64,000 bases of DNA, taken from positions 5,618 through 69,617 of the forward strand of contig CAVVFV010000010.1 in the NCBI GenBank assembly GCA_963747695.1, given 5' to 3'. A model generated the notes under the pieces. The model saw only the letters and a list, made by a program, of their open reading frames with translations. It searched no databases and was not told where the DNA came from. The position numbers and the translations under genes were made by a program. Shown in pieces: positions 1-46,900 of the stretch (position 1 is its first letter; each line of letters begins with the position of its first letter). This DNA comes from Candidatus Falkowbacteria bacterium (lineage in GTDB: Bacteria > Patescibacteriota > Patescibacteriia > Patescibacteriales > WJLG01).

Positions 1-50
1 TTAGTCATAACATTTTTATTATTTTTTTATATATTAATAATTATAGCATA

Positions 51-560
51 AAAATCCTAAATTTAAAATCCTAAATCCTAAACAAATCCAAATGTCCAAA
101 ATTCAAAATTAAAAACCGTTGCGATTAAAGATTATTGCCGGTTATTTTTTTCTGACTTTGTAATAATCGCGCCAAATATTTTCATCAATTCCACTGATTC
201 GTTAATCAACCGTTGTTTCTCTGCTTTTAAACTTAAATTGCTTCCTTCCTCAATCAACTTAAGCCAATAACGGCTTTCCTTGGCTTCCTTGCGGCTTATT
301 TTTATCCTAAAAATAAAGTCTTTTTTGCTTAATGATTCATTGGCCTCGATGTAATTAGCTCCTACAGAGCCGGATGATCTGATTACCTGTTTTGCATCCT
401 CGATATTGGCAATGGAACTCGGAATCACTTTAATAAATTTTCTTACCCGGTCGGCAAATTCCAATGTCCGATTTTCCAGATCATAGTAATTCACCCTCGC
501 TGTTTTGAACATTAGAATTTTGAATTTGTTTAGGATTTAGGATTTCGTGCTTAGAATTTA
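51..560. repeat. class-I hairpin cassette: inverted-repeat arms enclosing four-helix-bundle ORF 132..512
   Basis: 66..87 'aaatcctaaatcctaaacaaat' is the exact reverse complement of 524..545. Simple-sequence flanks (aatcctaaa / tttaggatt) extend the arms. Confidence 0.85.
132..512 (-). CDS. four-helix-bundle protein (23S rRNA intervening-sequence protein / DGR-Avd-like family)
   Basis: 126-aa ATG ORF. Family-typical motifs 'SSGSVGANYIEA' and 'RKEAKESRYWL'. About two-thirds identical by eye to ORF 6556..6930. Enclosed by a perfect 22-nt inverted repeat (66..87 / 524..545). Confidence 0.85.
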   Translation of the reverse strand: MFKTARVNYYDLENRTLEFADRVRKFIKVIPSSIANIEDAKQVIRSSGSVGANYIEANESLSKKDFIFRIKISRKEAKESRYWLKLIEEGSNLSLKAEKQRLINESVELMKIFGAIITKSEKNNRQ

Positions 561-1286
561 TTTGACGATCATCTTCCCGACCGCGCCAAGTTGGCGGTGG
601 CCATCAAAATCGGAATAAAATGTATATTCGCCAAGCTGAGTCGGAGCATTGAAAGGAATCGCCAAAGTTTGCCGCGGTTCCAAGCCCATCGCCACGGCGG
701 CCAAGAGCGGGCTGTCGAATTTAAAAACTTCCACCGAACTGGCAGCGGTAACCGACAACACCACCGCTTGTCCGGCGCTGACCGTGAATTCCGCGGGAAC
801 AATCGAATCGGGATTTATCGTTAATTTTATGGCGCTCGCCGGCAGTTTGCTGGCATCGATCGGCGCCGACTGCAAAGGAGCGTTGGCATCACCGGCCCGC
901 GTGCCGTTGGCCGCCGTTTCCGATCCATCGCGCGTCAAAACTTCGCCGGTTTTTTCCGAGATCGGATTGCTTTGCGGCGCGACCACCACGGCTTGTTCCG
1001 GAGTCGTAGTACCGTCGCCGTTGTCCCGATTAACCGTAATTACTTTGGCAATATTTCCTGCCGCGGGAGTCGAGGCTAAATTTTTCGTTTCCTCAATCAA
1101 TTTTTGTGTGGCTTGTTTGCCCGCTTCAATGCTCGTGGCCGGGGCTTGGCCGGTCTGGGCCGCGGGCGGATTTTTCGTTATGGTCTTCGGCGCAGAAAAA
1201 TTTTTCCAAATAAACAAGCCGGCGATAAAAACAACCAAAACGCCGATGATGACAGACATGATGATGATGGATTTTTTTGTGAACAT
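558..1286 (-). CDS. membrane-anchored secreted protein, C-terminal cupredoxin-like beta-sandwich (tentative)
   Basis: 242-aa ATG ORF. N-terminal TM helix 'IIIMSVIIGVLVVFIAGLFIW', an Ala/Thr/Pro-rich linker, and a C-terminal tail 'EYTFYSDFDGHRQLGAVGKMIVK'. The fold call is by eye only. Confidence 0.6.
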   Translation of the reverse strand: MFTKKSIIIMSVIIGVLVVFIAGLFIWKNFSAPKTITKNPPAAQTGQAPATSIEAGKQATQKLIEETKNLASTPAAGNIAKVITVNRDNGDGTTTPEQAVVVAPQSNPISEKTGEVLTRDGSETAANGTRAGDANAPLQSAPIDASKLPASAIKLTINPDSIVPAEFTVSAGQAVVLSVTAASSVEVFKFDSPLLAAVAMGLEPRQTLAIPFNAPTQLGEYTFYSDFDGHRQLGAVGKMIVK

Positions 1287-1295: not shown

Positions 1296-1731
1296 ATTGT
1301 TATATTGTTATACTGCTATATTGTTAATTTATTATTCGTAAAATTTATTAGGTGATAAATTTCTTTCGGTAATTTCGCCAATTCACCAAATATGTACCTA
1401 TACTCATCTTCGTTCAACAACTTTCTCACTCGAGATTTTTCATTCCAATCCAATGATTCTTTCAGAGATCCGATTGAATAACGATAAAACTTAATTTTGT
1501 CTTTTTTACTGTATCGGCCGAAACCTTCGGCAATATTTGCGTAAATGGAATCGGCAGCGGTAACAAATTGCTCCCCCAAAGAACTTTTATTAAAATAATC
1601 CCATTTTACTATTTTGCTCCAAATATAATTGGATAAATTAAAACTTATTTTGTAAGCGTTCAAGTCGTTGAGCGACAAAAATTTCCCCTCCATAAAATTA
1701 TAACAATATAGCAATATGACAATATAACAAT
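1296..1731. repeat. class-II hairpin cassette: inverted-repeat arms enclosing four-helix-bundle ORF 1316..1693
   Basis: 1296..1326 'attgttatattgttatactgctatattgtta' against the reverse complement of 1701..1731 gives 29/31 matches. Confidence 0.85.
1316..1693 (-). CDS. four-helix-bundle protein, divergent member of the IVS/Avd-like family
   Basis: Motif 'ANIAEGFGRYSKKDKIKFYRYSIGSLKESLDW'. The track ORF starts at a TTG (1714) inside the inverted-repeat arm; the ATG at 1693 (MEGKFLS...) is preferred. Confidence 0.8.
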   Translation of the reverse strand: MEGKFLSLNDLNAYKISFNLSNYIWSKIVKWDYFNKSSLGEQFVTAADSIYANIAEGFGRYSKKDKIKFYRYSIGSLKESLDWNEKSRVRKLLNEDEYRYIFGELAKLPKEIYHLINFTNNKLTI

Positions 1732-4032
1732 CTATTTAAGATTAACCAGCGCCATCACCCAGCCTTTGCCCGTATCCGCTTCAAGGGCTTTGCCGATTGC
1801 CGTACCGACTTTGGGGTTGATCGCTTTCATCGCTTCGCCGGAAACTGCCGAAGTCGTCAGCAGATCGCCCGGTTGGATCTTTCCGCCGGTGGCGTTAACC
1901 AAAACTTTTACCACGCCGGTCAAAGCGACGGGCGCGACAAACTTTCCTTCGACTTGGCCGATGACCATGCCCGGCTTTTCAGAAATTACTCCGATCACCG
2001 TCTGATCATAATTTTTATCGCAGGCGCGAGCTGATTTATAGCCCTGGTCGTCCATCACCAAAACCGTACCGGCCGGATAATTTTTGTCAGTATAAAACTC
2101 TTCGGCCACGTCGCCCGAACCGGCCGTGATCTGACCGGCAACTAACAGGTCGCCGGACTTGGTTACTCTTAATACATTAGTCGTGGTTGAGCTCGCCACG
2201 TCAAAAATATCGCTGATACCGGCGGCACCGGCTACCGTTAATTTGGCTGTTGCCGCAGTTGTTCCAACGCCGACGTTACCGGATATATAAGCGTTGCCGG
2301 CGCCGTAATTTGCTCCGGCGGCATTATAACCGACCAACAAAGAAGCGGCAGTTGAAACCTGGAAAGGATGAGTGGCGTCGCCCACGTATCTTATGCCATA
2401 TCCTTCAATGAATTTAGTGATGGCAAAAGTGCCGCTTTCAAATCCCAGCCCGGCTCCGGCAAGACTAATACCGATTGGCCCGTTTACGGTGAGAGTTTCG
2501 GCCGGATTGGTGGATCCGATGCCGACGCTGCCGGAGCCATAAGCTCCGCCGCCATCTAAAATGATGTTATCGTTTTGTTTGATAACAAAATCATAATGAG
2601 AAGTTGCCCCGCTATAAATTGACAGGTCATTAGTGCCAAGAACGGCAGAAGCGATTAAAGCGTAATAGAACGAGCCCTCCTTAGCCAAGTCAAACTCCCC
2701 CCCGCTGGTTCCGCCAGCCCTAATCACCGGCTGCGCTCCGCCGCTCACATGTAATGTTGCCATCGGGTTGGTCGTCCCAATGCCGACGTTGCCGCCGCTT
2801 AATATTGTAACTCTGGTAGTATCGTTAGTTCCCAGTTGCAGCGGATATGCCCCCGATTGATTCATCACAAAGGCATATGGCAATCCGCCGTTTGTTGTAA
2901 ACGCTGTTCCAGCGCTATTTTCAATACCAAAATACGCACCGGGAGTATTTGAAAAACTAAGGAAAGCGGCATTGGTAGCAGTAGTAGAGTGCAAATGTAT
3001 CCGCGCCGTTGCCCCTTCAACCTGTAAAGGAAACAAAGGGTTGGTCGTCCCAATGCCGACGTTGCCGCCGTTCTGAACTATTAAACGGGTAGTTCCAATA
3101 CCGCTGGCAACTGACATAAAATTAAATCCATTGCCATCTTCCCCTAAAAGATAGCCGGTATTGTCGTAAGTCCTGTTCAGTAATATAGCAGGCCAATATT
3201 GTGCCGTTAATTTCAAATTATTAGAAAAACCCTGATTGGTAAAATTATCTGCACTGGATATTATTTCTAATGCGCCGCCGGGATTGGTCGTCCCGATGCC
3301 TACGCCGTTTTTGTTTAAATTAAGTATTGATGAATAAGTCGTTCCGCCATTGATAATATCATATTGCCAACCGATCGTTCCGTTAACTGGATTATTTCCA
3401 TGGAGCTGCAAATAATAATTATTGGGTAAATCAGTTTCGTCCCGCCAAATTTGTCCGGTAACATAGCCATCAACTTCCAATTTAGCGCCAGGATTGGTCG
3501 TCCCAATGCCGACGTTGCCGGTGTTCATATTCCAAATATTTCCCCCCAATGTTCCGCTCCAAAATTTGGAAGATGAAGCCGCCCAGTCGACGTAATATTT
3601 GGAAGCGGCTTCATTGTTATTGATCGGGATGGTCGCCAATCCCACGACCCGATTGCCATCGGCGTCAATGACGTTGACGTTCGGGGCGGACGGACTGCTT
3701 ACCAATAAACTGGCGGCGCCCAGCGAGGAAGAAGCAATGGCTACCTTACCGTTATAAACGAAAAAATTAGATACGATTGACGGCGAAGTGGTACCGAGCT
3801 TCAAAGTCCCGTACTTGGTCTGATCGATCGGTAAAGCAGTGGATCCGGTGAAAATCGGCGGCGTAACATTGCCGCCAGTCGGACTGGCGGTCGGATTGGA
3901 CCAGTCAGCTAAGCCATAAAGCGCGTAAATAAAAACCCCCAACACGACAAAGGCGCCGAGAGCAAAGCCTAAACTCGAATCTTTTAAAGAATTTTGTATT
4001 TTAGTAAAATTGTCTTTTTGGGAAAACTGCAT
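1732..4032 (-). CDS. secreted fibre-like repeat protein (six GIGTTNP-type repeats; phage fibre/appendage-like C-terminal domain, tentative)
   Basis: 766 aa with an N-terminal TM anchor. Six spaced copies of G-[IV]-G-[TS]-T-x-[PA]...L-x-V. The DNA unit 'ggttggtcgtcccaatgccgacgttgcc' recurs near 2766, 3039, 3281 and 3492. The C-terminal 'GDVAEEFYTD...VIGVISEKPGMVIG' resembles autoproteolytic intramolecular-chaperone domains of phage fibres (recollection, unverified). Confidence 0.7.
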   Translation of the reverse strand: MQFSQKDNFTKIQNSLKDSSLGFALGAFVVLGVFIYALYGLADWSNPTASPTGGNVTPPIFTGSTALPIDQTKYGTLKLGTTSPSIVSNFFVYNGKVAIASSSLGAASLLVSSPSAPNVNVIDADGNRVVGLATIPINNNEAASKYYVDWAASSSKFWSGTLGGNIWNMNTGNVGIGTTNPGAKLEVDGYVTGQIWRDETDLPNNYYLQLHGNNPVNGTIGWQYDIINGGTTYSSILNLNKNGVGIGTTNPGGALEIISSADNFTNQGFSNNLKLTAQYWPAILLNRTYDNTGYLLGEDGNGFNFMSVASGIGTTRLIVQNGGNVGIGTTNPLFPLQVEGATARIHLHSTTATNAAFLSFSNTPGAYFGIENSAGTAFTTNGGLPYAFVMNQSGAYPLQLGTNDTTRVTILSGGNVGIGTTNPMATLHVSGGAQPVIRAGGTSGGEFDLAKEGSFYYALIASAVLGTNDLSIYSGATSHYDFVIKQNDNIILDGGGAYGSGSVGIGSTNPAETLTVNGPIGISLAGAGLGFESGTFAITKFIEGYGIRYVGDATHPFQVSTAASLLVGYNAAGANYGAGNAYISGNVGVGTTAATAKLTVAGAAGISDIFDVASSTTTNVLRVTKSGDLLVAGQITAGSGDVAEEFYTDKNYPAGTVLVMDDQGYKSARACDKNYDQTVIGVISEKPGMVIGQVEGKFVAPVALTGVVKVLVNATGGKIQPGDLLTTSAVSGEAMKAINPKVGTAIGKALEADTGKGWVMALVNLK

Positions 4033-4080
4033 AAAAATTTTATAGTCCCCGCTTGACGAAACGTTTTTAGCTCCGGCAGA

Positions 4081-4189
4081 TTTTTTAATTTTGTAATTTT
4101 TAAATTTTTAAAATAAATCCTAATTTTTAATTTTTAAAAATTAAGCCTTAAAAATTCTTTCAAAAATTTAAAAATTAAAAATTAATTTG
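4081..4189. repeat. AT-rich inverted-repeat element, family 'aaaattaaaaatt', copy 1
   Basis: The core at 4115..4169 is ~95% identical to 13366..13421. The outer arms 4081..4109 / 4162..4186 are complementary. Confidence 0.75.
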
Positions 4190-4197: not shown

Positions 4198-4554
4198 TCA
4201 AAATAATCCCTCGAAATACGGGACAAATATTATCAATCCGACGGCGATGGCCAAGATTGCGGCGATCATCACGGCCGCGGCCATGATATCTTTGGCGGCC
4301 ATCACCGACTCGTGGATCCTCGGCTTAAGCACGTCGGCCAGCCGTTCAATCGCGCTGTTGACCGTTTCCATCAGGATCACCAAGGCGATGCAGATCAAAA
4401 TGGCGCACCATTGCCAAGGCTGGATCTTAAAAACAAAGCCTAAAGCTATTACAATTATAGCAACTAATGAGTGAATCTGTAAATTTTGCTCCTCGCGAAA
4501 AATTTTGAACAAGCCGCGGAAAGCATAGCCGAAACTCTTGAATAAACGAATCAT
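4198..4554 (-). CDS. dgkA: diacylglycerol kinase / undecaprenol kinase family protein
   Basis: 118 aa with three TM segments. Motif 'EEQNLQIH...ETVNSAIERLAD...AKDIMAAAV' is typical of prokaryotic DAGK. Confidence 0.85.
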   Translation of the reverse strand: MIRLFKSFGYAFRGLFKIFREEQNLQIHSLVAIIVIALGFVFKIQPWQWCAILICIALVILMETVNSAIERLADVLKPRIHESVMAAKDIMAAAVMIAAILAIAVGLIIFVPYFEGLF

Positions 4555-4660
4555 TGTTATATTGTCATACTGTTATATTGCTATATTGCTGCGCAACGAA
4601 ATAAATATTTATTGTAATTTAAGACGTCACTTAACAATATAACAATATAGCAATATAACC
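4553..4660. repeat. 'empty' class-II hairpin between ybeY and dgkA
   Basis: Built from the same caatataacaa/ttgttatattg units as the arms at 1296..1731. A 17-bp perfect stem joins 4572..4588 and 4643..4659. The loop begins 'gcgcaacgaaataaata'. Confidence 0.75.
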
Positions 4661-5087: not shown

Positions 5088-5220
5088 AAATCTGAAATAC
5101 AAAATCCAAAAATAAATTCAAAATCCGAATAACAAAAATTCTAATCGTTTTGAATTTTGAATTTTTAACATTTGAATTTGTTTAGGATTTCGTGCTTAGA
5201 ATTTCGGATTTGATTAGAAT
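5088..5220. repeat. 'empty' class-I hairpin (no ORF in loop) upstream of ybeY
   Basis: 5174..5211 'gaatttgtttaggatttcgtgcttagaatttcggattt' matches the leader motif at 522..559 and 6940..6978. Nested pairings are 5136..5144/5196..5204 (9 bp) and 5119..5129/5203..5212. Confidence 0.7.
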
Positions 5221-6480: not shown

Positions 6481-6978
6481 TTAAATCCGAAGCTAGAAAT
6501 CCGAAATCCGAAACAAATCTAAAATCTCAAATCAGTAAAAACTAAAATTTTAATTTTATTCCTCTTGGGTTGAATTTCTTAAAATAGCTCCGAAAATTTT
6601 CATTAATTCCGTTGCCTCATTGGCTAAAAAATTTCTTTCCCGCGCCGCATTCTCGTAATTTCCGCAATCAATTAAAATTAGCCAGTATCTGCTTTCTTTG
6701 GCCTCCTTGCGACAAATCTTTATTCTTAAGATAAAATCTTTTTTACTTAAAAAATTATTAGCTTCGATATAATTTGCACCCACCGAACCGGACGATCTTG
6801 CCAATTGTTTCGCATCTTCAATATTTGATGTTGAAAACGGAATAACTTTTAGAAAATTTCTAACTTTGGCTGCGAAATTAAGTGTTCTCTCTTCCAAATC
6901 ATAATAATTAATTCTCACTGTTTTGGTCATTGGAATTTTAAATTTGTTTCAGATTTCGTGCTTCGGATTTCGGATTTA
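6481..6978. repeat. class-I hairpin cassette enclosing four-helix-bundle ORF 6556..6930
   Basis: 6497..6512 pairs perfectly (16 bp) with 6962..6977, and 6511..6518 pairs with 6942..6949. The right arm carries the conserved 'aatttgttt.ag.atttcgtgctt.g.attt' motif. Confidence 0.8.
6556..6930 (-). CDS. four-helix-bundle protein (IVS/Avd-like family)
   Basis: 124-aa ATG ORF. 'SSGSVGANYIEANNFLSKKDFILRIKICRKEAKESRYWL'. Bracketed by inverted repeats 6481..6528 / 6932..6978. Confidence 0.85.
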   Translation of the reverse strand: MTKTVRINYYDLEERTLNFAAKVRNFLKVIPFSTSNIEDAKQLARSSGSVGANYIEANNFLSKKDFILRIKICRKEAKESRYWLILIDCGNYENAARERNFLANEATELMKIFGAILRNSTQEE

Positions 6979-7039: not shown

Positions 7040-7867
7040 TTACTTCAGCTTTCCCGGACCGAGCGGATTGTAACCATTCTGGACTTCCGAGCCGTCAGTG
7101 TAGCCGTCGCCGTCGGTGTCCGGATTATTCGGGTCGGTGTGATAGACTTTCACTTCCTGATAATCGGTTAAGCCGTCATTATCCGAATCCGCTTTGTTAG
7201 GATTGGTATGATAGATATTGATCTCATCATAATCGGACAGGCCGTCCCCGTCAGAGTCAAGCGTCGAAGCCGAAGAAGACGCGGAAGATGAAGCGACTAC
7301 CGGAGAAACCGGCGACGTTGTGGCGATTGGTATGACCGGCGTAACGGTCGGCGGGGTCGAGACGACCGGACTCTCTGGAGTCGTCACCGCCGGAGCGGCC
7401 GGTTGTGAAACATTATTCTGATTGACGGGTGATGCCGGAGCGACATTATTGATCACCATCGTTTGGCCGGATTGTTTGGTGAAGATGCCGCTCAAATCGG
7501 AAAATTTGCTTGCCCAGCTCGACGGGTTAGTGATCTCCACTCCCATAAATTTTCCGGCGATGAAAATTGCCAGACCGATAATAAGCAAAATTATTACGAT
7601 CGTTATGACCGCTCCCCAGACTTTGCCGGAAGATTTTTCCCTCGGCACGGACGGAATTTTTGCGGCGGGCGAAGCGGCGCCCGGCATTTTCGGCGCGGCG
7701 CCGATATCCTTGACGCCGGCAAACATATCTTCAACCGGCGCGGTTTTTGGAGCCGGAAAAGATCCGGCCGCCGGCATTGCCGGAGCATTACTCCCCGCTC
7801 CCGGAGCCGAAGCCGTGGTTTTACCGGTTAAATTTTGCCCCTGATTTTGATCTAAATTTTCAAACAT
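7040..7867 (-). CDS. single-pass membrane protein with TSP3-like Ca-binding repeats
   Basis: 275 aa. TM helix 'VWGAVITIVIILLIIGLAIFIAG'. Three DxDxDGxxDxxE repeats ('DSDGDGLSDYDE', 'DSDNDGLTDYQE', 'DTDGDGYTDGSE'). Same architecture as 5289..6413. Confidence 0.7.
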   Translation of the reverse strand: MFENLDQNQGQNLTGKTTASAPGAGSNAPAMPAAGSFPAPKTAPVEDMFAGVKDIGAAPKMPGAASPAAKIPSVPREKSSGKVWGAVITIVIILLIIGLAIFIAGKFMGVEITNPSSWASKFSDLSGIFTKQSGQTMVINNVAPASPVNQNNVSQPAAPAVTTPESPVVSTPPTVTPVIPIATTSPVSPVVASSSASSSASTLDSDGDGLSDYDEINIYHTNPNKADSDNDGLTDYQEVKVYHTDPNNPDTDGDGYTDGSEVQNGYNPLGPGKLK

Positions 7868-8008: not shown

Positions 8009-11000
8009 CTATTGGCTCTGGCAGGTTCCATTGGTACCGCAGGACGAACCGGCGGCTTTGCCATTACAGGCGTTTTTAGCGGCAGCCGGATCGGAACAGA
8101 CAATATTCTTACCGAAAAAATAAGATTCTTTCAGCAAGTCTTGGCAAGTTCCGCCCGCGCCGCAAGCCGCGCCGACCGGCAAACCGGTGCAGGTACCCGG
8201 AGCGTTAGTATCAGTACAATCCAAATTCGAACCAAGCGAAGTGACCGGATTGGTTACCGTGGGCAGATCGGCAGCGCTGCCGCCATTGTCGCGGCAATAA
8301 TACAATTCATAATTCATCGGATTGCAGACGGAATTCAGCGGATTCGTCGGGGACTTGACGCAGCCGCCGCCCAAAACCGCATCCAAAGTATCAAACCAGG
8401 GGCGCCAAGGAATTCCTTGCGACTGCAGATTATCCGGCCAGGTGGAAGAACACATAAAGACATAAACATCAGCCGTGCTTGAGGCGTTAGGATTTGGCAC
8501 GCTTTGATTGACATCCGTGAAAGTTCGAGTGTCGGTCAGATAAACTTTGGCTAAAAGCTGGGCTTGGGCATCGACAACTCCCGCTACCGCCCGAACCAAT
8601 TGCTCCGGAGCAACATAATCAAAAGGCTGAATAATGCCATTGTTGTTATTATTAACGAAATTGACCGCCAGGGTATTGCCGTTCTGCCAACTCCAAGTCC
8701 AGGAATATCCCTTTACCGGATGAAGGACCTGATCGTCGGCGGACAAGGCGGCGGCGGTGAAAGCTTTATCGTTGTCGGCAGCCGTATCAAAAGTCTTCGA
8801 GGTAGGATCGTTGTCGTTTTCATTCAAATCACTGTTGGAGTGATTGATCAGATAAGAATCGGGGGAAATAGAAACGTGGTCAATGCCGCAAATGCCGTCA
8901 TCTTCGCCGCTGGCTTGTTTGGTCTTGAACCACCAAAGGTAAGAATTAGTGAAAGCGACACCGTCAAATTGAGAGTAATTGGCCACCGGACTAGCGGAAC
9001 CAAAAACATTCAAGCCGATATCCCAGTAACTTAATACGGCGCCGGTAGTGGTGGACAGATCATGCACACCCCTGACCACGGCATAATAAACAGTGTCCGG
9101 TTCAAGGACGATCGAAGGTTGGAAATTAAGGATCGTCTTATTATCCCCTTCCTCGGCGCTGGAAACATTTCCCGGCACGGAGCAATAAAGATGAGAATTA
9201 TCCGGCACATTCGCGAGGCTCTGCTTACCAAACAGCCAGGTTAAATGTTCGCGCGCATCAGCCAGCAATTTGTCGTAAGTTTTCTCAAAAATATTTTTAT
9301 TCTGCAGGCTCACGTTCGCCGTTCCGATCTGGGTCGTGCCCGAGGCGCACTTGGCGTCGCCCGCCACTTCCTCGATTAAAATAAAATCATCATTAAAACT
9401 TCCGGTGTCCATCTTTTGATTGAAAGACACGCCCAAGTCGGCGTTGGTGCAAACATTGGTTACGCCGTTATCAGGCGTGATGGTGGAAACGCTGGGACGG
9501 GCGCGGCAGCAGGAATCCATGCCGCAGCCTTGATAATCCGGTGTTGCTCCCGGCGGAACGCAGCTGTCATTGCCTTGGCAGCCGCAGCAAAGTCCGCGGC
9601 TATCGCCCGAGCAAGGAGTCTGATTCTTTCGGCAGGACAAAGCGGAATTCAAACCCAAATCATGACAAGCGTCGTAAGTGGAGGCATCGGTTTTATCCGC
9701 TCCGATTTTAGTCGGATCGCAGCAGCAGAAGCCGCAACCGGCCGCGGCCGGTTTATCCGGAGCTTTCGCTCCGTTGTCGAGGAGACAACTGAAAGGACCG
9801 GAGCAGATGCCTAAATTGCAAGTATCAGGCTGGTTCTGATTTTGGCAGCTGACGCCCAAGAGAGAATTGGAAGATCCGCATTTATCATTGCACTCGGCCG
9901 AGGAAGGGAAGAATGGGCTGGCCGGCAAACTGGTCGGAGTCGAACAGCCGGCGGCATTATCGCCGCACTGAAAATAACCGCAAAAAGTACTGCCTTGATA
10001 ATTCACGATCGGTAATATATCGCCCAATGTATTGTCATAAGATAAATTCTTACAATTGCCGCTTTGCCGATCAACGCAGCAAGCGCCGGAATGATCGCGG
10101 CAGGAAGCGGCATCGGACATCGCCGCGCAATCGCGGCAAACTCCGTCGGGAAAATTAGTAGTGTCAGAGGTATCGCAGAATTGCCCGGTATGCGCGGCGC
10201 AACTGCAGGCCGCATCGGAACCGGCAACGTCTACCTGGCCGGCATTCGGACCGGAAGAGAAAAGTTTTTTGCAGCCGCCGCAAGAACCGTAAGTCGTCGG
10301 ATTGGCCTTGCCGACATCGCTGCCGCAAGTCCCCTCGCATTTCAAGGGAGCACAACAATCCTGGTTGGCATTGGCTTTCTGACAGCAGCAAGGACAAGTA
10401 TTCCCTGGAGCTTTTTCGCATTGTCCGCTGACGCAAGTTGAACCGCCGGCGCAGACCTCACTCGCCGAACCGCAAACGCCTTGATGCGAAGCGGGCTGGC
10501 TCGGATCGGCCAAACAGTCTTGCTTGGCATTGAGGCAGATCGAGCACGGGGTCGCGGTGTCGACACAAACCGGGATGCCCTGAACATCAATGCCGCGAAG
10601 ATTGAATTTTGCCGAACAGCGGGGACCGGCCTTATACATATAATAGTAGAAGAGATTATTGCTCACATCTTTATAAGCGCCGCAATAAGTATCATGAGAG
10701 TTGCCCAAATCATCGACGGTGGTGCTGGCTAAATCGCAAACCTCGCTATGGCCGCCGGTATTTTCCACACATCTGTTGAGTTGAGAACTATAAACGCAGG
10801 TGCCGGAGTCACAACCGGGCTGATCCTGGCAATGCGAATCATCGCAATTAACTGTCGGCGAAAAAGGCTGCAAAACAGGACTGCCGGTTAAAGGCGAACA
10901 CTCGCCCGGAACATTGGGACAAGTCAGTCCCAAAGTGCAGGCGCCGGTCGCGTTACTTATTTCCTCACAGCTTCCCGGAGCAGTCGGGGAAGCAATCGGC

Positions 11001-13333
11001 GTAACATTGGTGCTGAATTTGAATTCGTAAACCGAGGTCGAAGCGGTCGCCGAACAATCAGTGGTTAGGTTAGCCACGCAAGTGCCGGCTTTGGCGGTAT
11101 CAGCCCCGCAGCAATGTTCGTCCGCGCCGCAAGCCGTATCCTGTTTCGGCGCGTCAAGACAACTGCCGACGGAAAAATTCAAGCCATTGCCTTCCAAAGC
11201 GTTGGCGGGCGAGGAAGCATTTTTGACTACGGTCACCGGACCGGTGGCGGCCGACGACGGTACAGCCGTGGTGATCGTATTCGGCGTGTTATCGCCATCC
11301 CAGGTAAGCTTGGCAGCGCCGCTCACTGGTTGATTATGAAAAAATCTGACCAGACTGTTGGATTCATCAAAGGTGGAAAAATATTCTCCCCAGAGATTAA
11401 CTTGCGTACCGACAACTCCGATTACCGGGCTGATCTTGCAGAGCGACGGCTTCAACGGCAAGCTCGTGTCAACTTTGAAACTTTGCGGCGTCGCGCCCGC
11501 CGAGGTCAGCGTCTGGCCGTTTTCCAATTTGACCGTTAAAATATCATTAAAATTCGAAAACTTTGGATCAGTACTGACTGGCACCTTAACAATAATCTGC
11601 TGATCGCTCCAAGTACTATCTTTGCAGACAGGTGGGAAATCGAGATCGGCTAGCGTACCATTAGTGACGGTGCCGAAATAGACCTGGCTCTTACCCTGGA
11701 TGTTGCCGAAGCCGTTGCCGCGGATGGTAACGTATTGTCCGATATTGCCGGTAACCGGTTCAAAGGATGAAATAAAAGCGCCCAAGGCCGGCGTAGAACT
11801 GTTGGTAAAAGCGAGATAGTTGCTATTCTGCTGGCTGTCGGAATTATAGACAAAGGTGGTGGTCTGGCCCGGATTGAAATTAGGAACGATCGCCGAGCCG
11901 GCATTGCTGCCGAAAGCCGAATTGACCCCCATAATCGAGGCGCCGTAACTGCCGAAATCGGCCGCGGCCGCCGAGCTGAAATTGACGCCATTATAAAAAA
12001 CGCTGCTGCCCAGTTTGCCTTCGGGCGTTACCTGGCAAAGGCCGGGCCGGGTTATCGAATTCACGACAAAATCTTTTATTTTCGGTCCGCGCGAATCATT
12101 GGTTAAATCGGTTTTGTCATCAATGGTGGTTACCCTGATCGGTCCGTCTTTGGCGCCTACCGGAACGACGATGATGATCTGATTGGCAGCCCAGGACGAA
12201 ACGCAATTGCGATTGGCGGTTTTAGGAAGATCGCCGGCCACGAAACCGCCGGCGCCGTTGGAAAATTCCACTGTGCCGGTAGCATCGCCGAAATATTGTC
12301 CGCCGAGAGAAATAATATTACCCACGGCGCCGTTGGGCGCGGCAGTATCACAAGTCGAACCCGGACAATCAGTATCTTTAGTACAAATCTTATTATGGTC
12401 GCTATCGCAAAAACCGCCGACCGGACTCACCCAATCGATGACCGGATATTCCTCGCAAGTGCAAGCTTTAGCGCCGGTGGTTTCGCAGGTCAAATTATTG
12501 GAGCAAAGATTACTGTCCGGCCGGCAAACTCCGGCCGTGGTAGTGGCATTACAGGGAGCGCCGACTCCGACCGAAGGAGCGCATTGGCAAGTGCCAAAAT
12601 CGCAAGCCGAATTATTATAGCAATTATCAATCGCTTGGCAGCCGGGCGCCGAATTCACATCACAGGGTCCGCCGTCGTTCGCTTGCGGCTGGCAAGTACA
12701 AGGGTCGGCCGCGTTAGGATCGCAAAAATGGGTGCTATCGCAAGCGCCGTTATCTTCACATACTCCGGGCGTAGTCGCGCCATTGCATGAAGTTCCGGTG
12801 CCGCCGGCCGTCGGGCACAAGCAAGTAGACATATCGCAAGAACCGACATCGCAGACGCCGCCGCAGGCGCCCAACGCCGCGGTGCCGCCGCACGGCTGGC
12901 CGGCTCCGCCCGTTCCGGGTAAGATCGAACCGCCGCCGCCGGTAGTAGTGCCGGTGGTGCTGACGCCGGTCGCATTTAAAATTGAGTTAAGGATAAAGGT
13001 GGCGATGGCGAAAGCCGAAAGGATGATCAGTAAACCGATCACTGCCGAAACCAGAACTTTTTTGGCCGTGGTGATCTTTTCTTCGTCGCCGGAGGCCGTC
13101 ATCCATAAAAATCCGCCGTAGATTATCAAGCCGATGGCGATCACGCCTAAAAATCCCAAAGCGATCCGGATAATATTGCCGACGATCAGCCGCGGATCGG
13201 TCGCCACCAATCCGGTGGCATTGCCATAGCTTAAGCCCAAATCCGCCCCCTGGGCCAACGCCAAACCGGCAAAGGCGAAAAGGCCAGCTAAAAGAGTTAG
13301 GGCTATAATTATTTTTTTTGATGGTTCAGACAT
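8009..13333 (-). CDS. giant cysteine-rich surface protein with N-terminal TrbC/VirB2-like 'pilin' module and IPT/TIG- and SbsA-like Ig domains
   Basis: 1,774 aa from the ATG at 13333 (the track start at 13339 is GTG). N-terminus 'YGNATGL..TDPRLI...YGGFLWMTASGDEEKITTAKKVL..IGLLIILSAFAIATFILN'. Two Cys-dense blocks at about 12440..12900 and 9500..11160. Ig-like segments lie between them. Confidence 0.85.
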   Translation of the reverse strand: MSEPSKKIIIALTLLAGLFAFAGLALAQGADLGLSYGNATGLVATDPRLIVGNIIRIALGFLGVIAIGLIIYGGFLWMTASGDEEKITTAKKVLVSAVIGLLIILSAFAIATFILNSILNATGVSTTGTTTGGGGSILPGTGGAGQPCGGTAALGACGGVCDVGSCDMSTCLCPTAGGTGTSCNGATTPGVCEDNGACDSTHFCDPNAADPCTCQPQANDGGPCDVNSAPGCQAIDNCYNNSACDFGTCQCAPSVGVGAPCNATTTAGVCRPDSNLCSNNLTCETTGAKACTCEEYPVIDWVSPVGGFCDSDHNKICTKDTDCPGSTCDTAAPNGAVGNIISLGGQYFGDATGTVEFSNGAGGFVAGDLPKTANRNCVSSWAANQIIIVVPVGAKDGPIRVTTIDDKTDLTNDSRGPKIKDFVVNSITRPGLCQVTPEGKLGSSVFYNGVNFSSAAAADFGSYGASIMGVNSAFGSNAGSAIVPNFNPGQTTTFVYNSDSQQNSNYLAFTNSSTPALGAFISSFEPVTGNIGQYVTIRGNGFGNIQGKSQVYFGTVTNGTLADLDFPPVCKDSTWSDQQIIVKVPVSTDPKFSNFNDILTVKLENGQTLTSAGATPQSFKVDTSLPLKPSLCKISPVIGVVGTQVNLWGEYFSTFDESNSLVRFFHNQPVSGAAKLTWDGDNTPNTITTAVPSSAATGPVTVVKNASSPANALEGNGLNFSVGSCLDAPKQDTACGADEHCCGADTAKAGTCVANLTTDCSATASTSVYEFKFSTNVTPIASPTAPGSCEEISNATGACTLGLTCPNVPGECSPLTGSPVLQPFSPTVNCDDSHCQDQPGCDSGTCVYSSQLNRCVENTGGHSEVCDLASTTVDDLGNSHDTYCGAYKDVSNNLFYYYMYKAGPRCSAKFNLRGIDVQGIPVCVDTATPCSICLNAKQDCLADPSQPASHQGVCGSASEVCAGGSTCVSGQCEKAPGNTCPCCCQKANANQDCCAPLKCEGTCGSDVGKANPTTYGSCGGCKKLFSSGPNAGQVDVAGSDAACSCAAHTGQFCDTSDTTNFPDGVCRDCAAMSDAASCRDHSGACCVDRQSGNCKNLSYDNTLGDILPIVNYQGSTFCGYFQCGDNAAGCSTPTSLPASPFFPSSAECNDKCGSSNSLLGVSCQNQNQPDTCNLGICSGPFSCLLDNGAKAPDKPAAAGCGFCCCDPTKIGADKTDASTYDACHDLGLNSALSCRKNQTPCSGDSRGLCCGCQGNDSCVPPGATPDYQGCGMDSCCRARPSVSTITPDNGVTNVCTNADLGVSFNQKMDTGSFNDDFILIEEVAGDAKCASGTTQIGTANVSLQNKNIFEKTYDKLLADAREHLTWLFGKQSLANVPDNSHLYCSVPGNVSSAEEGDNKTILNFQPSIVLEPDTVYYAVVRGVHDLSTTTGAVLSYWDIGLNVFGSASPVANYSQFDGVAFTNSYLWWFKTKQASGEDDGICGIDHVSISPDSYLINHSNSDLNENDNDPTSKTFDTAADNDKAFTAAALSADDQVLHPVKGYSWTWSWQNGNTLAVNFVNNNNNGIIQPFDYVAPEQLVRAVAGVVDAQAQLLAKVYLTDTRTFTDVNQSVPNPNASSTADVYVFMCSSTWPDNLQSQGIPWRPWFDTLDAVLGGGCVKSPTNPLNSVCNPMNYELYYCRDNGGSAADLPTVTNPVTSLGSNLDCTDTNAPGTCTGLPVGAACGAGGTCQDLLKESYFFGKNIVCSDPAAAKNACNGKAAGSSCGTNGTCQSQ

Positions 13334-13342
13334 TGACACGCT

Positions 13343-13440
13343 TTATAATTTTTTAATTTTTAAAGAAATCCTAATTTTTAATTTTTTTAAAAATTAAGCC
13401 TTAAAAATTCTTTAAAAATTACAAAATTACAAAATTAAAT
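13343..13440. repeat. AT-rich inverted-repeat element, copy 2
   Basis: Shares its core with copy 1. Shares both termini with copy 3 ('ttataattttttaatttttaaa' and 'tttaaaaattacaaaatt'). Confidence 0.75.
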
Positions 13441-16518: not shown

Positions 16519-16520
16519 TA

Positions 16521-16713
16521 TCGTATTTCGTATTTCGTATTTCGTATTTTGACTGCCCAGCGATTTGCTCTTGAATTTTGGGCGTAAAAATACAAAAAAC
16601 GCCAGACGAATCATTGACTAATCCCCACTGTTGTTATTAAATTAGATTATACCATAAAATGCCAAGAGAATAAAATATACGAAATACCAAATACGAAATA
16701 CGATATACGAATT
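16521..16713. repeat. 'cgtatttcg/cgaaatacg' inverted simple repeats flanking the divergent promoter region
   Basis: Left arm 16521..16550 ((tcgtattt)n). Right arm 16672..16713 (its imperfect complement), abutting the rel ATG. Confidence 0.7.
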
Positions 16714-18496: not shown

Positions 18497-18599
18497 ATTC
18501 GTATCTCGTATTCGGTATTTCGTATTTCGTATATATTTTCAGCAACATTCTGTCCAAAAACATACACGAAATACGAAATACGATCTACGAAATACGATT
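18497..18599. repeat. 'cgtatttcg' family hairpin between hisS and rpsU
   Basis: Arms 18497..18534 and 18562..18599 are ~85% complementary, with a 27-nt loop. Confidence 0.75.
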
Positions 18600-20809: not shown

Positions 20810-20888
20810 CGAAATATCCGAATACTACGAACCCTGCAAATCGAAAAAAAATTCGTTGTATTCGCGTATAATTCGTAGTATTCGTATT
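20810..20888. repeat. 'cgaatac' family hairpin upstream of lepB
   Basis: 13-bp perfect stem 20819..20831 / 20872..20884, with an inner palindrome 'tcgaaaaaaaattcg'. Confidence 0.7.
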
Positions 20889-21090: not shown

Positions 21091-21192
21091 GTTATACTGC
21101 CAAATTGTTATATTGTTACGCAACGAAATAAATAACAATGGTGTTTATTAAAATCGTTGCGTAACAATATAACAATTTAACAATATGACAAT
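21091..21192. repeat. 'empty' class-II hairpin, 25-bp perfect stem
   Basis: 21102..21126 'aaattgttatattgttacgcaacga' is the exact reverse complement of 21154..21178. The 27-nt loop begins 'aataaata', as in 4553..4660. Confidence 0.85.
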
Positions 21193-22719: not shown

Positions 22720-23202
22720 CTACGATTTTAATTCGTTAACCGAACTGATGGCGATCGCCAGGGCGTCGGCGGCGTCATCGGGCCGCGGAATCTCTTTTAA
22801 GTTAAGCAAGAGCTTAACCATTTTTTGGACTTGCGCCTTTCCCGCCTGGCCGTAACCCGCGATTGTCTGCTTGACTTGCAACGGCGTCATCTCGGTGAGC
22901 GGAATTTTATTTTTACGGCAGGTCAAGAGAATGACTCCCCTGGCCTGGCCGACCGCGATCGCGGTCTTGGCATTATTATAAAAAAATAATTCTTCAACGG
23001 CCGCCAAAGCCGGCTGATATTTCTTGATGATCTTTTCCAATTCATTATTCAGAGTTTCCAAACGTTCGGCGATCGGCAATCCGGCTTTGGTCTTGATTGA
23101 ACCATAAGCGAGGCAGGAAATCTTGCCGCCCTGGCCTTTTTCAATCAAGCCATAACCGGTATCGGCTATTCCCGGGTCTACACCCAGTATTATTTTAGAC
23201 AT
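22720..23202 (-). CDS. ruvC: crossover junction endodeoxyribonuclease RuvC
   Basis: 'ILGVDPGIADTGYG...DAADALAIAI'. The track start at 23214 is a TTG inside a hairpin arm; the ATG at 23202 is preferred. Confidence 0.9.
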   Translation of the reverse strand: MSKIILGVDPGIADTGYGLIEKGQGGKISCLAYGSIKTKAGLPIAERLETLNNELEKIIKKYQPALAAVEELFFYNNAKTAIAVGQARGVILLTCRKNKIPLTEMTPLQVKQTIAGYGQAGKAQVQKMVKLLLNLKEIPRPDDAADALAIAISSVNELKS

Positions 23203-23203
23203 G

Positions 23204-23293
23204 AAAATATCCAATAAACAATATCAAATATCCAAAAAATATTAAAATATTTAAATATTTTTTAAAATATTGGCTATTTGATATTGGATATTT
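23204..23293. repeat. 'aaatatccaata' hairpin filling the yebC-ruvC gap
   Basis: 12-bp perfect stem 23205..23216 / 23282..23293 with an imperfect extension. The arms touch the ruvC start and the yebC stop. Confidence 0.7.
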
Positions 23294-24011
23294 ATTTAAG
23301 ATTCGAGTAGTGGTCTGAGATATCCTCATTATCATCCATCGCCGCCATCAAGCCTTCGATCTTGGCGGCATCTTCGCCTGAGACTTCGATGGTATCTTTG
23401 GCAACGTATTCGATTTCGGCTGATTCGGTGGCAACGCCCTTGCCTTCCAGATATGTTTTAACTTTCTGTAAATTTGCGCCTGGTGTCAGGATCGTCAGGC
23501 CTTCGGCTTCTTTTTTGACATCATCCGCTCCGGCATCGATCAGTTCCAGCTGGCCTTCATCGCTATCGATCCCTTTAGCCGCAGCCACTTCCGCCGAGAC
23601 ACGGATCACGCCTTTCAAATCGAAATTCCAAAGCACCGCGCCCATCGCGCCGCCATGAGCGGCGAGCAAGTGGCGGACTTCCGCGGCCGTGCGATTCTTA
23701 TTATCAGTCAAGATCTTAATGACAAATTGGGAGTTGGCCGGGCCGACCGCCTCGTAAACCAATTCATCAAGCGTTGCGCCTTCCAATTCTCCCGTGCCGC
23801 GCTTGATCGCCCGTTCAATGTTTTCTTTCGGCATATTGGCCGCTTTGGCGCGGCTGACCGCGGTGCTCAAAGCAAAGTTTGAAGCCGGATCACCGCCTTT
23901 GCGGGCCGCGATCGTAATGACATTGGAAATCTTAGTGAAAGCGGCGCCGCGCTTGGCGTCGACGATTTCTTTAGCTCGATGAGTGGTCGCCCACTTGGAA
24001 TGTCCGGACAT
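23292..24011 (-). CDS. yebC: YebC/PmpR-family DNA-binding transcriptional regulator
   Basis: 239 aa with the N-terminus 'MSGHSKWATTHRAKEIVDAKRG'. Confidence 0.92.
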   Translation of the reverse strand: MSGHSKWATTHRAKEIVDAKRGAAFTKISNVITIAARKGGDPASNFALSTAVSRAKAANMPKENIERAIKRGTGELEGATLDELVYEAVGPANSQFVIKILTDNKNRTAAEVRHLLAAHGGAMGAVLWNFDLKGVIRVSAEVAAAKGIDSDEGQLELIDAGADDVKKEAEGLTILTPGANLQKVKTYLEGKGVATESAEIEYVAKDTIEVSGEDAAKIEGLMAAMDDNEDISDHYSNLK

Positions 24012-46764: not shown

Positions 46765-46900
46765 GGCTAATTCCTTTCCGGGAAATAATCAATTGATAAA
46801 GAACTGGAACTTTTAATTTTATGCTTATAATATAAAAATATCAAGAGCCTTTCTTGATTGCTTGATAACTTTAAACTTTTAACTTTTTACTTATTACTTT

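What the first reader, a model, noticed from the sequence alone, without database searches (positions are those of the whole stretch)
1296..1731. Second cassette: a divergent four-helix-bundle ORF with arms from a different sequence family, so arm and ORF co-vary
ORF 1316..1693 is enclosed by 31-nt arms (1296..1326 and 1701..1731, 29/31 complementary) built from 'caatataacaa' units. These are unrelated to the 'aatcctaaa' arms of the neighbouring cassette only 750 nt away, and the encoded protein is also the divergent one. Two cassette classes with matched arm and ORF types argue that arms plus ORF evolve as a unit rather than the arms being generic intergenic filler. The arms overlap the last codons of the ORF and its spurious TTG-extended 5' end.
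Basis: seen in the sequence. Interest (0 to 1): 0.75.

Follow-up and report, generated by a model that had tools for sequence, protein, structure and literature searches.

The report
Operon-embedded four-helix-bundle gene cassette with cognate repeats

Summary
ORF 1316-1693 (-) is a PF05635/TIGR02436 four-helix-bundle protein. It is enclosed by arms 1296-1326 and 1701-1731 (29/31 complementary; 40 nt at 85% when extended), far beyond chance.

- In 79 homologous loci from at least 8 phyla, the gene is flanked by 8-nt-period arrays: ATTGTTNN upstream, NNAACAAT downstream.
- In 79 loci of the neighbouring cassette's subfamily, the arrays have a 7-nt period: CNAA+NNN upstream, NNN+TTNG downstream.
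- The two arm types never cross (Fisher P about 1e-41). Blind clustering of the flanks recovers the protein split (ARI 1.0).
- A third subfamily, the crystallised XCC0516, sits between accB and accC with GGGAATN/ATTCCCN arrays.

Cassettes fill the gap between co-oriented host genes, have lower GC than the host, and their ORFs are under purifying selection. Their arms change less than synonymous sites. The ends are predicted to pair as RNA. The arms are inverted motif arrays, not strict palindromes, and ORF-less copies of the arrays exist.

Best reading: a cassette of the same kind as the ORF-carrying rRNA intervening sequence, living in mRNA operons, whose repeats are probably read by its own protein. 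RNA excision, protein binding and mobility are inferred, not shown.

The parts
1692..1731 (-). 5' (upstream) arm of the cassette. On the gene strand it reads ATTGTTAT ATTGTCAT ATTGCTAT ATTGTTAT AATTTTAT and runs up to the ATG. It starts directly after the stop codon (1732-1734) of the upstream 766-aa gene.
   Evidence: There are 0 differences in 42 nt against the syntenic relative L002, although the ORF's dS is 0.33.
1316..1693 (-). Four-helix-bundle protein gene (125 aa, pI 9.3), in the PF05635 / TIGR02436 family. It belongs to the divergent 'q1' subfamily, which lacks the canonical Arg of the GxxRxxxSxxxNxxE motif.
   Evidence: dN 0.023 and dS 0.33 against L002. The family profile matches PDB 2GSC (E 0.002).
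1296..1335 (-). 3' (downstream) arm. On the gene strand it reads ..AAATTAACAATATAG CAGTATAACAATATAACAAT. Its first units encode the C-terminal L-T-I and the stop codon. It ends 9 nt before the ATG (1284-1286) of the downstream cupredoxin-like gene.
   Evidence: The 20 nt outside the ORF are identical in L002, whereas 3 of the next 9 nt differ.
47..564 (-). Neighbouring cassette 1: ORF 132..512 (126 aa, PF05635, 'q2' subfamily) with arms 47-108 / 503-564 made of 7-nt AAATCCT/AGGATTT units. An inner inverted repeat includes the start codon.
   Evidence: Absent at the syntenic site of L002.
6483..6977 (-). Cassette 3: ORF 6556..6930 (124 aa, 68% identical to the cassette 1 protein) with arms 6483-6515 / 6947-6977 made of AAATCCG/CGGATTT units.
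   Evidence: No counterpart in L002.
4553..4659 (.). ORF-less hairpin with q1-type arms (ATTGTT-like x5 ... AACAAT-like x3, 48-nt loop). It fills the ybeY-DAGK junction, running from 6 nt after the ybeY stop to the DAGK ATG.
   Evidence: Its loop shares a 16/16 match with the 21096 copy but has no significant match to the cassette interior.
21096..21192 (.). Second ORF-less hairpin with q1-type arms and an inner stem ACGCAACGA...TCGTTGCGT.
5114..5206 (.). ORF-less element with q2-type arms. Its right part nearly copies the arm of cassette 1. It may be an internally deleted cassette, but that is not statistically supported.
20814..20887 (.). ORF-less hairpin built of CGAA/TTCG-core units.
16519..16710 (.). 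Outward-facing pair of q2-like arrays ((ATACGAA)x4 on each gene strand). Each lies directly upstream of the ATG of one of two divergent genes: a T4SS-pilin-like gene (ATG 16518, -) and a RelA/SpoT gene (ATG 16714, +). The arrays pair in at least 4 registers.

Best explanation
The feature is one copy of a widespread class of compact (about 430-500 nt) gene cassettes. Each is a PF05635/TIGR02436 four-helix-bundle gene bracketed by inverted tandem arrays of a subfamily-specific 7-11-nt repeat. It is the same kind of element as the ORF-carrying intervening sequence (IVS) of 23S rRNA, but it lives between protein-coding genes of an operon.

Shown:
- Arm family and protein subfamily are inherited together across phyla.
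- The cassette is co-oriented with both neighbours and fills the gap from the upstream stop codon to the downstream start codon.
- The ORF is under strong purifying selection, and the arms change less than synonymous sites.
- The cassette has lower GC than its host, and cassettes of this class are patchily present among close relatives (cassettes 1 and 3 have no counterpart in L002; this cassette is present there).
- The two ends can pair over about 30 bp.

Inferred:
1. The cassette has no promoter of its own and is transcribed with the host operon.
2. In that transcript the arms zip together. Because they are arrays, they can do so in several registers. This loops the cassette out, as an rRNA IVS is looped out and cut by RNase III. 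It also brings the upstream stop next to the downstream start, so the insertion does little harm to the operon.
3. The basic protein, a toroidal pentamer in solved relatives, recognises its own repeat. It reads a 4-6-nt core spaced every 7-8 nt, much as TRAP or HutP read spaced triplets. It thereby controls pairing, processing or translation of its own message and perhaps of other sites that carry the same repeat.
4. Spread is horizontal and slow. The mechanism of insertion is unknown.
For: Family membership.

Arm-ORF linkage:
- period 8 is the best lag in 73/78 upstream and 69/78 downstream q1 flanks. Period 7 or 14 is best in 60/77 and 66/77 q2 flanks. Control windows show no preferred lag.
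- 76/79 against 0/79, and 75/79 against 0/79.
- ARI 1.0.
- arm sub-variants follow the nearest protein neighbour.
- other paralogues carry yet other unit families (period 11, 9 and 7).
- the XCC0516 family lies between accB and accC with GGGAATN/ATTCCCN arrays.

Operon embedding:
- co-orientation 130/142 and 102/111, against baselines of 0.77 and 0.70.
- arms begin a median 4-5 nt after the upstream stop and end a median 10-25 nt before the next start.
- PMC3936711 reported these genes between cmr3 and cmr2.

Constraint: one search gives dN/dS of about 0.07, with 0/42 and 0/20 arm differences against a synonymous p-distance of about 0.27.

Foreignness:
- ORF GC is below the host's in 76/79 and 50/50 loci.
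- cassettes 1 and 3 have no counterpart in the relative L002.
- 61-71% identity across phyla.

Pairing:
- a 32-bp terminal stem, z = -4.9.
- at least 20 end-to-end pairs in 57/79 and 48/77 loci; the median is 27-29 pairs against 5-6 in controls.
- 30-42 pairs in the accB-accC cassettes.

IVS precedent (PMC4990558): 428-444 nt, a 28-bp terminal stem, an S23p ORF in the loop in the sense orientation, cut by RNase III.

A conserved core with free spacers, and same-motif arrays elsewhere in the window, point to a sequence-specific reader.
Against: - Mismatches in the arms show no G:U excess over A:C on the mRNA strand (65 against 61; 65 against 63). There is therefore no signature of RNA-level selection for pairing.
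- Unit order is not mirrored more than chance. With an unbiased register, the variable triplets of the q2 arms match only marginally better in mirrored positions (1.44 against 1.26 of 3; P = 0.08).
- No target-site duplications were seen.
- There is no sign of recent transposition: an identical protein on 10 contigs is always in the same context. The accB-accC copy looks vertically inherited.
- Same-motif arrays directly upstream of unrelated genes (16519-16710) fit a DNA-operator role at least as well.
- A plasmid homologue has no arrays.
- RNase III cleavage, protein-repeat binding and transcription were not tested.
- The AF2 model of this protein was poor (pLDDT 46.5).
- Whether classical rRNA IVS arms are tandem arrays could not be checked.
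Confidence: 0.5

Rival explanations
1. DNA-level operator model. The four-helix-bundle protein is a small DNA-binding regulator. The repeat arrays are its operators on double-stranded DNA, like the heptad arrays bound by the omega repressor or the iterons of ParR. Arrays flank its own gene for autoregulation and control of the downstream gene, and they mark other targets in the genome. RNA pairing is incidental.
For: - The core is conserved at fixed spacing with free spacers, and there is no strand asymmetry of mismatches.
- Same-motif arrays lie directly upstream of the start codons of RelA/SpoT and a pilin-like gene.
- The proteins are basic (pI 9.1-9.8).
- The arms are constrained at sequence level.
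Against: - Cassettes lie inside tight operons, where no promoter is expected (for example accB-accC).
- Arms overlap coding ends and start codons rather than promoter-like sites.
- The strict inverted arrangement and the about 30-bp end pairing in most loci are not needed for operators.
- The family's known relative, Avd, works with RNA and a reverse transcriptase (from the DGR literature; homology noted in PMC10053308).
Confidence: 0.2
2. Pure zipper model. The arms matter only as a multi-register RNA or single-stranded-DNA stem and no protein reads them. The conserved core is a frozen accident, kept because every unit must pair with every unit of the other arm. Arm type follows protein clade simply through common descent of the whole cassette.
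For: - Arrays pair in several registers.
- In the q1 family the variable NN are homogenised within a locus and shared by both arms irrespective of order: 156 matches against 99.9 +/- 7.8 when the right arm comes from another locus.
- End pairing is predicted in most loci.
Against: - There is no G:U over A:C bias.
- In the q2 family the spacers are neither shared nor complementary, so stems would be 4-bp blocks separated by loops.
- The same core is kept across phyla and across hosts of very different GC content.
- Solo arrays without a partner arm exist.
Confidence: 0.15
3. Passenger model. The arms are terminal inverted repeats of a MITE-like element moved by a transposase encoded elsewhere. 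The four-helix-bundle gene is cargo, or an addiction or accessory gene.
For: - ORF-less elements with the same arms occur in the same genome.
- Patchy presence among relatives and low GC.
Against: - No target-site duplications.
- Each arm family is tied to one protein subfamily in very different phyla, which would need matching transposase families everywhere.
- No transposase lies next to any of the loci inspected.
- The loops of the ORF-less copies are not derived from the cassette interior.
Confidence: 0.1
4. Generic intergenic filler. The arms are this genome's ordinary intergenic hairpins or terminators, and their association with the ORF is coincidental.
For: This genome has many short tandem arrays and hairpins of several unit types at gene boundaries.
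Against: - The same arm motif flanks the same protein subfamily in 76/79 and 75/79 loci from unrelated hosts, with no crossing between types.
- The arms are not followed by T-runs and are not picked up as terminators.
- The arms are more conserved than synonymous sites.
Confidence: 0.03

Closest known systems
ORF-containing intervening sequences (IVS) of 23S rRNA, e.g. Coxiella burnetii, Leptospira (PMC4990558)
   Same: - Same protein family (S23p / PF05635).
- Same size: 436 nt here, 428-444 nt in Coxiella.
- Terminal complementary sequences forming a stem of about 30 bp, with the ORF in the loop.
- The ORF is in the sense orientation of the host transcript.
- Lower GC than the host, sporadic distribution, and inferred horizontal transfer.
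   Different: - This cassette is not in an rRNA gene. It sits between protein-coding genes of an operon.
- The ORF here is under strong purifying selection, whereas the Coxiella ORF is decaying and apparently untranslated.
- The arms here are tandem arrays of a clade-specific 7-8-nt unit. Whether classical IVS stems share this is unknown to me and was not tested.
- RNase III cleavage is shown for IVS and only inferred here.
REP sequences and their RAYT (TnpA-REP) genes / REPINs (PMC3116915)
   Same: A single small gene is flanked by inverted copies of a short repeat that also occurs many times without the gene in intergenic regions of the same genome. Gene clade and repeat type are cognate.
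   Different: RAYTs are HUH Y1 transposase homologues. This protein is a non-enzymatic-looking four-helix bundle. The repeats here are tandem arrays of 7-11-nt units rather than single palindromes. The same repeat type travels across phyla.
Ring-shaped RNA-binding attenuation proteins that read spaced short repeats (TRAP, HutP), and small proteins that coat unspaced heptad DNA arrays (omega repressor of pSM19035). From my own knowledge, not tested here.
   Same: A small oligomeric protein paired with 3-6 or more copies of a short core at fixed spacing. HutP reads triplets at a 7-nt period; omega reads 7-bp heptads in direct or inverted arrays.
   Different: No homology. Binding is not demonstrated here. 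The fold and oligomer differ: a pentameric four-helix-bundle toroid in PDB 2GSC and 2RLD.
Avd, the accessory protein of diversity-generating retroelements
   Same: A homologous four-helix-bundle pentamer that is basic and binds nucleic acid (PMC10053308).
   Different: No reverse transcriptase and no template/variable repeat pair lie near this gene. Avd genes are not described with flanking tandem arrays.

Membership tests
PF05635 / TIGR02436 four-helix-bundle (23S rRNA IVS protein, S23p) family | Sequence match to the family model above the curated cut-off. | tested here: met
   PF05635: 73.5 bits against 33.8, covering profile positions 2-104 of 106. TIGR02436: 73.2 bits against 24.
PF05635 / TIGR02436 four-helix-bundle (23S rRNA IVS protein, S23p) family | Four-helix-bundle fold, pentameric in solved members. 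| tested here: inconclusive
   The subfamily profile matches 2GSC (5 chains) at E 0.002, and the neighbour's protein matches 2RLD at 2e-14. The AF2 model was helical but of low confidence (pLDDT 46.5). Oligomeric state was not testable.
PF05635 / TIGR02436 four-helix-bundle (23S rRNA IVS protein, S23p) family | Conserved motif GxxRxxxSxxxNxxE (PMC3936711). | tested here: not met
   This protein has ..Q..T...S...N..E (S49, N53, E56 invariant), so the Arg is replaced. Cassette 1 and 3 proteins keep R...S...N..E. This shows subfamily divergence and does not exclude the protein from the Pfam family.
rRNA intervening sequence (IVS) | Inserted in a helix of a 23S or 16S rRNA gene. | tested here: not met
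   Both neighbours are protein-coding genes. Rfam finds only tRNAs in the window. No rRNA signature was found in any of the 167 loci fetched by then.
rRNA intervening sequence (IVS) | Terminal complementary sequences forming a long stem that encloses the element. | tested here: met
   (32-bp stem, z = -4.9).
rRNA intervening sequence (IVS) | Excised from the host transcript by RNase III. | not testable with these tools
   Needs RNA-end mapping or an in vitro cleavage assay.
IS / MITE-type transposable element | A transposase gene, or terminal inverted repeats plus a target-site duplication. | tested here: not met
   The only ORF is the four-helix bundle. No direct repeats flank the arms in the 52 best loci.
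REP/RAYT system | An HUH (Y1) transposase-like gene flanked by inverted REPs. | tested here: not met
   The protein is PF05635, not Y1_Tnp. The architecture is analogous only.
Diversity-generating retroelement (Avd component) | An adjacent reverse transcriptase and a template/variable repeat pair. | tested here: not met
   The neighbours within 5 kb are a cupredoxin-like protein, a Peptidase_G2-like protein, DAGK, YbeY and TSP3-repeat proteins.
Known anti-phage defence systems (PADLOC) | A match to a defence-system protein model. | tested here: not met
   No hit at E <= 0.01.

The most novel reading that the evidence does not exclude
PF05635 proteins are sequence-specific readers of short tandem repeats: toroidal pentamers that each grip 4-6 spaced copies of a 4-6-nt core. 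Together with their cognate inverted arrays they form a previously unrecognised class of autonomous 'reader plus repeat' genetic elements. These elements colonise operon junctions, cas operons and rRNA genes across bacteria. On this reading the classical rRNA IVS is only the special case that was noticed first. The ORF-less arrays and hairpins of the same motif would be non-autonomous partners or regulatory targets. Spread might use an RNA intermediate, given the homology with the reverse-transcriptase cofactor Avd and the sense-strand bias.
Probability: 0.25. Interest if true: 0.9.

Novelty: new variant of a known kind. Interest (0 to 1): 0.8.

Why it matters
TIGR02436/PF05635 is a very large family of unknown function. 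One search here returned more than 7,800 relatives before hitting its candidate cap. The family has two crystal structures and a 30-year-old puzzle attached to it: why do some rRNA intervening sequences carry this ORF?

The gene comes as a cassette with clade-matched repeat arms, sits flush inside operons, and does so from candidate-phyla bacteria to Xanthomonas (between accB and accC). That turns the puzzle into a testable hypothesis about a cognate protein-repeat pair and about how an insertion can be tolerated inside an essential operon.

It also cautions against reading these genes as functional partners of their neighbours. An example is their reported 'association' with cas genes.

Finally, it offers an explanation for some of the short tandem-repeat hairpins that fill intergenic regions of streamlined genomes.

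Tried and rejected
- Strict palindrome or covariation support for an RNA stem. Shuffling unit order does not lower the inverted-repeat score. The anchor-based test is marginal (P = 0.08). There is no wobble asymmetry. I therefore do not claim covariation.
- ORF-less hairpins as deletion derivatives of the resident cassette. Their loops have no significant similarity to cassette interiors.
- Target-site duplications. None was visible. The filled and empty sites in L002 and the window are too diverged to align.
- Recent transposition. An identical protein on 10 contigs is always in the same context, with identical arms.
- Phage carriage. No relative was found in viral contigs.
- Plasmids. Only one distant homologue was found, and it has no arrays.
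- Cyanobacterial STRR heptamers as arms of cyanobacterial cassettes. This idea could not be tested.
- Promoter or terminator explanation. Consensus scans give nothing specific at the arms.
- Structure prediction of this protein. Confidence was too low for a fold search.
- Pentamer-equals-five-units idea. The modal unit number is 4 per arm, range 3-6, so the match is loose.
- Literature. Seven searches found no description of the repeat arms. The library lacks most subscription journals, including the original Leptospira IVS papers.
Full report
**1. The observation**

The window looks like a small-genome candidate-phyla bacterium (47.5% GC). Its closest relatives by protein are Patescibacteria metagenome bins.

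ORF 1316..1693 on the minus strand (125 aa) matches PF05635 '23S rRNA-intervening sequence protein' (E 1.9e-20) and TIGR02436 'four helix bundle protein'. The repeat finder gives arms 1296-1335 / 1692-1731 (40 nt, 85%). The inverted repeat scores 26, against 8.4 +/- 1.25 (maximum 15.5) in 2000 shuffles, and it is the top pair of that geometry in the whole window.

The arms are four 8-nt units each: ATTGTTNN on the gene strand upstream and NNAACAAT downstream. The 3' arm encodes the last residues L-T-I and the stop codon. The TTG-extended ORF is spurious, because homologues align from the ATG.

The cassette exactly fills the space between the stop codon of the upstream 766-aa gene (1732-1734) and a point 9 nt before the start of the downstream cupredoxin-like gene (1286).

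The neighbouring cassette (ORF 132..512) and a third one (ORF 6556..6930) encode proteins 68% identical to each other but only 29% identical to this one over 77 aa. Their arms are made of 7-nt AAATCC[T/G] units.

**2. Do arm and ORF co-vary?**

I fetched 80 loci from species-representative genomes that encode 61-71%-identical homologues of this ORF. They come from Bacteroidota, Paceibacterota, Falkowbacteria, Moranbacteria, Nealsonbacteria, Magasanikbacteria, Peribacteria, Saccharibacteria, Ignavibacteria, Chlorobiota, Calditrichia, Brocadia and Proteobacteria, and include the isolate Solitalea longa. I also fetched 80 metagenome loci encoding 57-70%-identical homologues of the cassette 1 protein.

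Flanking inverted repeats score a median of 17.5 and 16.5, against 7.5 for shuffles with a maximum of 11.5. The repeat structure is as follows.
- In the first family the best self-match lag of the flanks is 8 in 73/78 upstream and 69/78 downstream flanks.
- In the second family it is 7 or 14 in 60/77 and 66/77.
- Control windows in the same loci show no preferred lag.
- Arms have a modal 4 units, range 3-6.

With a motif-and-phase definition, ATTGTT-type arrays flank 76/79 loci of the first family and 0/79 of the second. CNAA-type arrays flank 75/79 of the second and 0/79 of the first (Fisher P about 1e-41).

Blind clustering of 5-mer profiles of the 60-nt flanks reproduces the protein split: ARI 1.0 (agglomerative) or 0.93 (k-means). 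The same analysis 300 nt further out gives 0.15.

Within each family, arm sub-variants (ATTGTT/ATGGTT/ATTATT; CGAA/CTAA/CAAA) follow the nearest protein neighbour in 55/58 loci (40.4 expected) and 22/27 (11.6 expected). AT-rich arms are retained in GC-rich hosts (L096, L108).

Other PF05635 paralogues that happened to lie in the fetched loci have other unit families:
- period 11, AATGGTCATTC / GAATGACAACT;
- period 7, GCGAGAN;
- period about 9, with an AAGGC core;
- period 7, ACAAATA.

**3. A third family in a cultured organism**

I used the part of the PDB chain 2GSC (XCC0516) that aligns to the subfamily profile as a query. In Xanthomonas the gene lies between accB and accC, co-oriented with both. 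The same holds for 70-76%-identical relatives in other contigs.

It is flanked by (C)GGGAAT-type 7-nt arrays upstream and ATTCCC(N) arrays downstream. These are flush with the accB stop and the accC ATG. The ends pair over 30-42 bp in RNA folds.

**4. Anatomy common to the families**

- Cassette-neighbour gene pairs are co-oriented in 130/142 and 102/111 cases, against 0.77 and 0.70 for other adjacent pairs in the same loci (P = 5e-6 and 1e-8).
- Arms begin a median 4-5 nt after the upstream stop and end a median 10-25 nt before the next start.
- In the first family the downstream array starts inside the ORF (consensus ..AAA TTA ACA ATA TAA CAAT..).
- In the second family a conserved inner inverted repeat contains the start codon (AAACAAATTCAAATG / CATTTGAATTTGTTT).
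- ORF GC is below host GC in 76/79 and 50/50 loci.
- The proteins are basic (pI 9.1-9.8).

**5. Evolutionary behaviour**

A syntenic relative (L002/L003) keeps this cassette but has no counterpart of cassettes 1 and 3. Between the two genomes:
- flanking genes are 50-81% identical;
- the ORF is 92.9% identical;
- the arms are 97.5-100% identical.

For the ORF, dS is 0.33 and dN is 0.023. The 42 nt upstream and the 20 arm nucleotides downstream show no change, while 3 of the next 9 nt differ. So both ORF and arms are constrained.

Other close pairs show unit gain and loss, but mostly less flank divergence than synonymous divergence.

An identical homologue seen on 10 contigs from different samples is always in the same context with identical arms. 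There is thus no sign of recent transposition. No target-site duplications are visible.

**6. What kind of repeat is it?**

The arms can pair. The RNA fold of this cassette has a 32-bp terminal stem (z = -4.9). In the MFE structures, at least 20 end-to-end pairs form in 57/79 and 48/77 loci, with medians of 27-29 pairs against 5-6 in control segments.

They are not strict palindromes, however.
- Shuffling the order of units in one arm does not lower the score.
- With a register fixed independently by the inner anchor, the variable triplets of the second family match 1.44/3 in mirrored positions against 1.26/3 in non-mirrored positions (P = 0.08).
- Mismatches show no G:U excess over A:C on the mRNA strand (65 against 61, and 65 against 63).
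- In the first family the variable NN are locus-specific and shared by both arms regardless of order (156 matches against 99.9 +/- 7.8).
- Arrays pair in several registers.

The conserved object is therefore a short core at fixed spacing, in inverted orientation on the two sides. That is what one expects of a repeated recognition site, or of a multi-register zipper. It is not what one expects of a classical covarying RNA helix.

**7. ORF-less relatives**

The window holds two homologous ORF-less hairpins with the ATTGTT-type arms (4553-4659 and 21096-21192). Their loops share a 16/16 match to each other but do not match the cassette interior. It also holds:
- two hairpins with CGAA-type units (5114-5206 and 20814-20887);
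- an outward-facing pair of (ATACGAA)x4 arrays directly upstream of the start codons of a pilin-like gene and a RelA/SpoT gene;
- a further array at 18567-18591.

Sixteen ORF-less array pairs also occur in the other genomes' loci. At the syntenic junctions, L002 carries hairpins of a different unit type, so these elements turn over quickly.

**8. Interpretation**

The closest known thing is the ORF-containing IVS of 23S rRNA. It has the same protein family, the same size, a 28-bp terminal stem, a sense-oriented ORF, low GC and sporadic distribution, and it is cut by RNase III (PMC4990558). This cassette fails the defining criterion of lying in an rRNA gene, so I do not file it as an IVS. It most likely works like one.

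On that reading it is transcribed with the host operon. It folds out through its arms. It is processed, or at least tolerated, because the stem brings the interrupted neighbours together.

The clade-specific conserved core, the solo arrays and the toroidal pentamers of solved relatives (2GSC and 2RLD, 5 chains each; PMC4990558) make it likely that the protein reads its own repeat. TRAP and HutP read spaced triplets in this way; that comparison rests on my own knowledge. These steps are inferred.

The main rival is a DNA-operator role. A protein-free zipper and a passenger-in-a-MITE model are less likely. Generic filler is excluded.

Earlier reports of these genes wedged between cas genes (PMC3936711) fit operon hitch-hiking rather than functional partnership.

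**9. Novelty**

Seven full-text searches found no description of the repeat arms or of the operon-embedded cassette architecture. The library is incomplete, and the original Leptospira IVS papers could not be read. I rate the finding as a new variant of a known kind (IVS-type elements), with a 0.25 chance that it represents a distinct reader-plus-repeat element class.

Noticed in passing
L165-L173 (Xanthomonas and relatives), e.g. L167 2925-3372: The crystallised 'S23p' prototype XCC0516 (PDB 2GSC) is encoded between accB and accC of the acetyl-CoA carboxylase operon. It is flanked by GGGAATN / ATTCCCN heptad arrays. accC has no recognisable Shine-Dalgarno sequence: the array runs into its ATG.
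   Followed up: partly
window 16519-16550 and 16674-16710; also 18567-18591: (ATACGAA)x4 arrays lie directly upstream of the start codons of two divergent genes: a T4SS-pilin/Big_5 protein (true start probably ATG 16518, not 16614) and RelA/SpoT. They face outward, the opposite arrangement to a cassette. A further copy lies between convergent genes.
   Followed up: partly
window 4080-4188 and 13380-13440; L002 2970-3101 and 3500-3583: There is another family of intergenic palindromes built from AAAAATT/AATTTTT-type units with a shared 'AAGCCTTAAAAATTCTTT' centre. In the relative L002 it occupies the junctions that carry ATTGTT-type or CGAA-type hairpins in the window.
   Followed up: no
window 23200-23300; 58686-58715; 61360-61390; 59478-59503; 46867-46903: Further short tandem arrays or hairpins lie at gene boundaries with other units (AATATCCA/TGGATATT; AAGTAAG and its complement directly after stop codons; AATTTTC; AACTTTT). 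Whether each has a matching four-helix-bundle paralogue elsewhere in the genome is unknown.
   Followed up: no
window 7040-7867 versus L002 411-1727: The TSP3-repeat protein next to cassette 3 is 275 aa here but 438 aa in the relative. The alignable part ends at the window protein's stop, so about 470 nt of coding sequence are missing where the cassette lies.
   Followed up: partly
window 1732-4032: The 766-aa neighbour has repeated 'NVGIGTTNP' motifs and a weak Peptidase_G2 intramolecular-chaperone match at its C-terminus. The last 400 nt or so are about 80% identical to L002, while the rest is about 50% identical.
   Followed up: no
window 24741-44432 and 8009-13339: A giant ORF of 6563 aa and a 1776-aa ORF whose L002 ortholog carries T4SS-pilin/Big_5 domains. 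Large surface proteins of this sort are typical of episymbiotic candidate-phyla bacteria.
   Followed up: no
L048 versus L049; L026 versus L030: The cassette arms and the 70 nt on either side of the ORF are identical in bins assigned to different taxa (Calditrichaceae and Candidatus Brocadia). This suggests binning contamination or very recent transfer. The two Falkowbacteria loci are likewise identical over the same stretches.
   Followed up: no
L164 (Pseudanabaena sp. PCC 7367 plasmid) 1486-1866: A PF05635 gene lies in a ParA / hypothetical / four-helix-bundle / dcm arrangement without any flanking arrays. The cassette architecture is therefore not universal in the family.
   Followed up: partly
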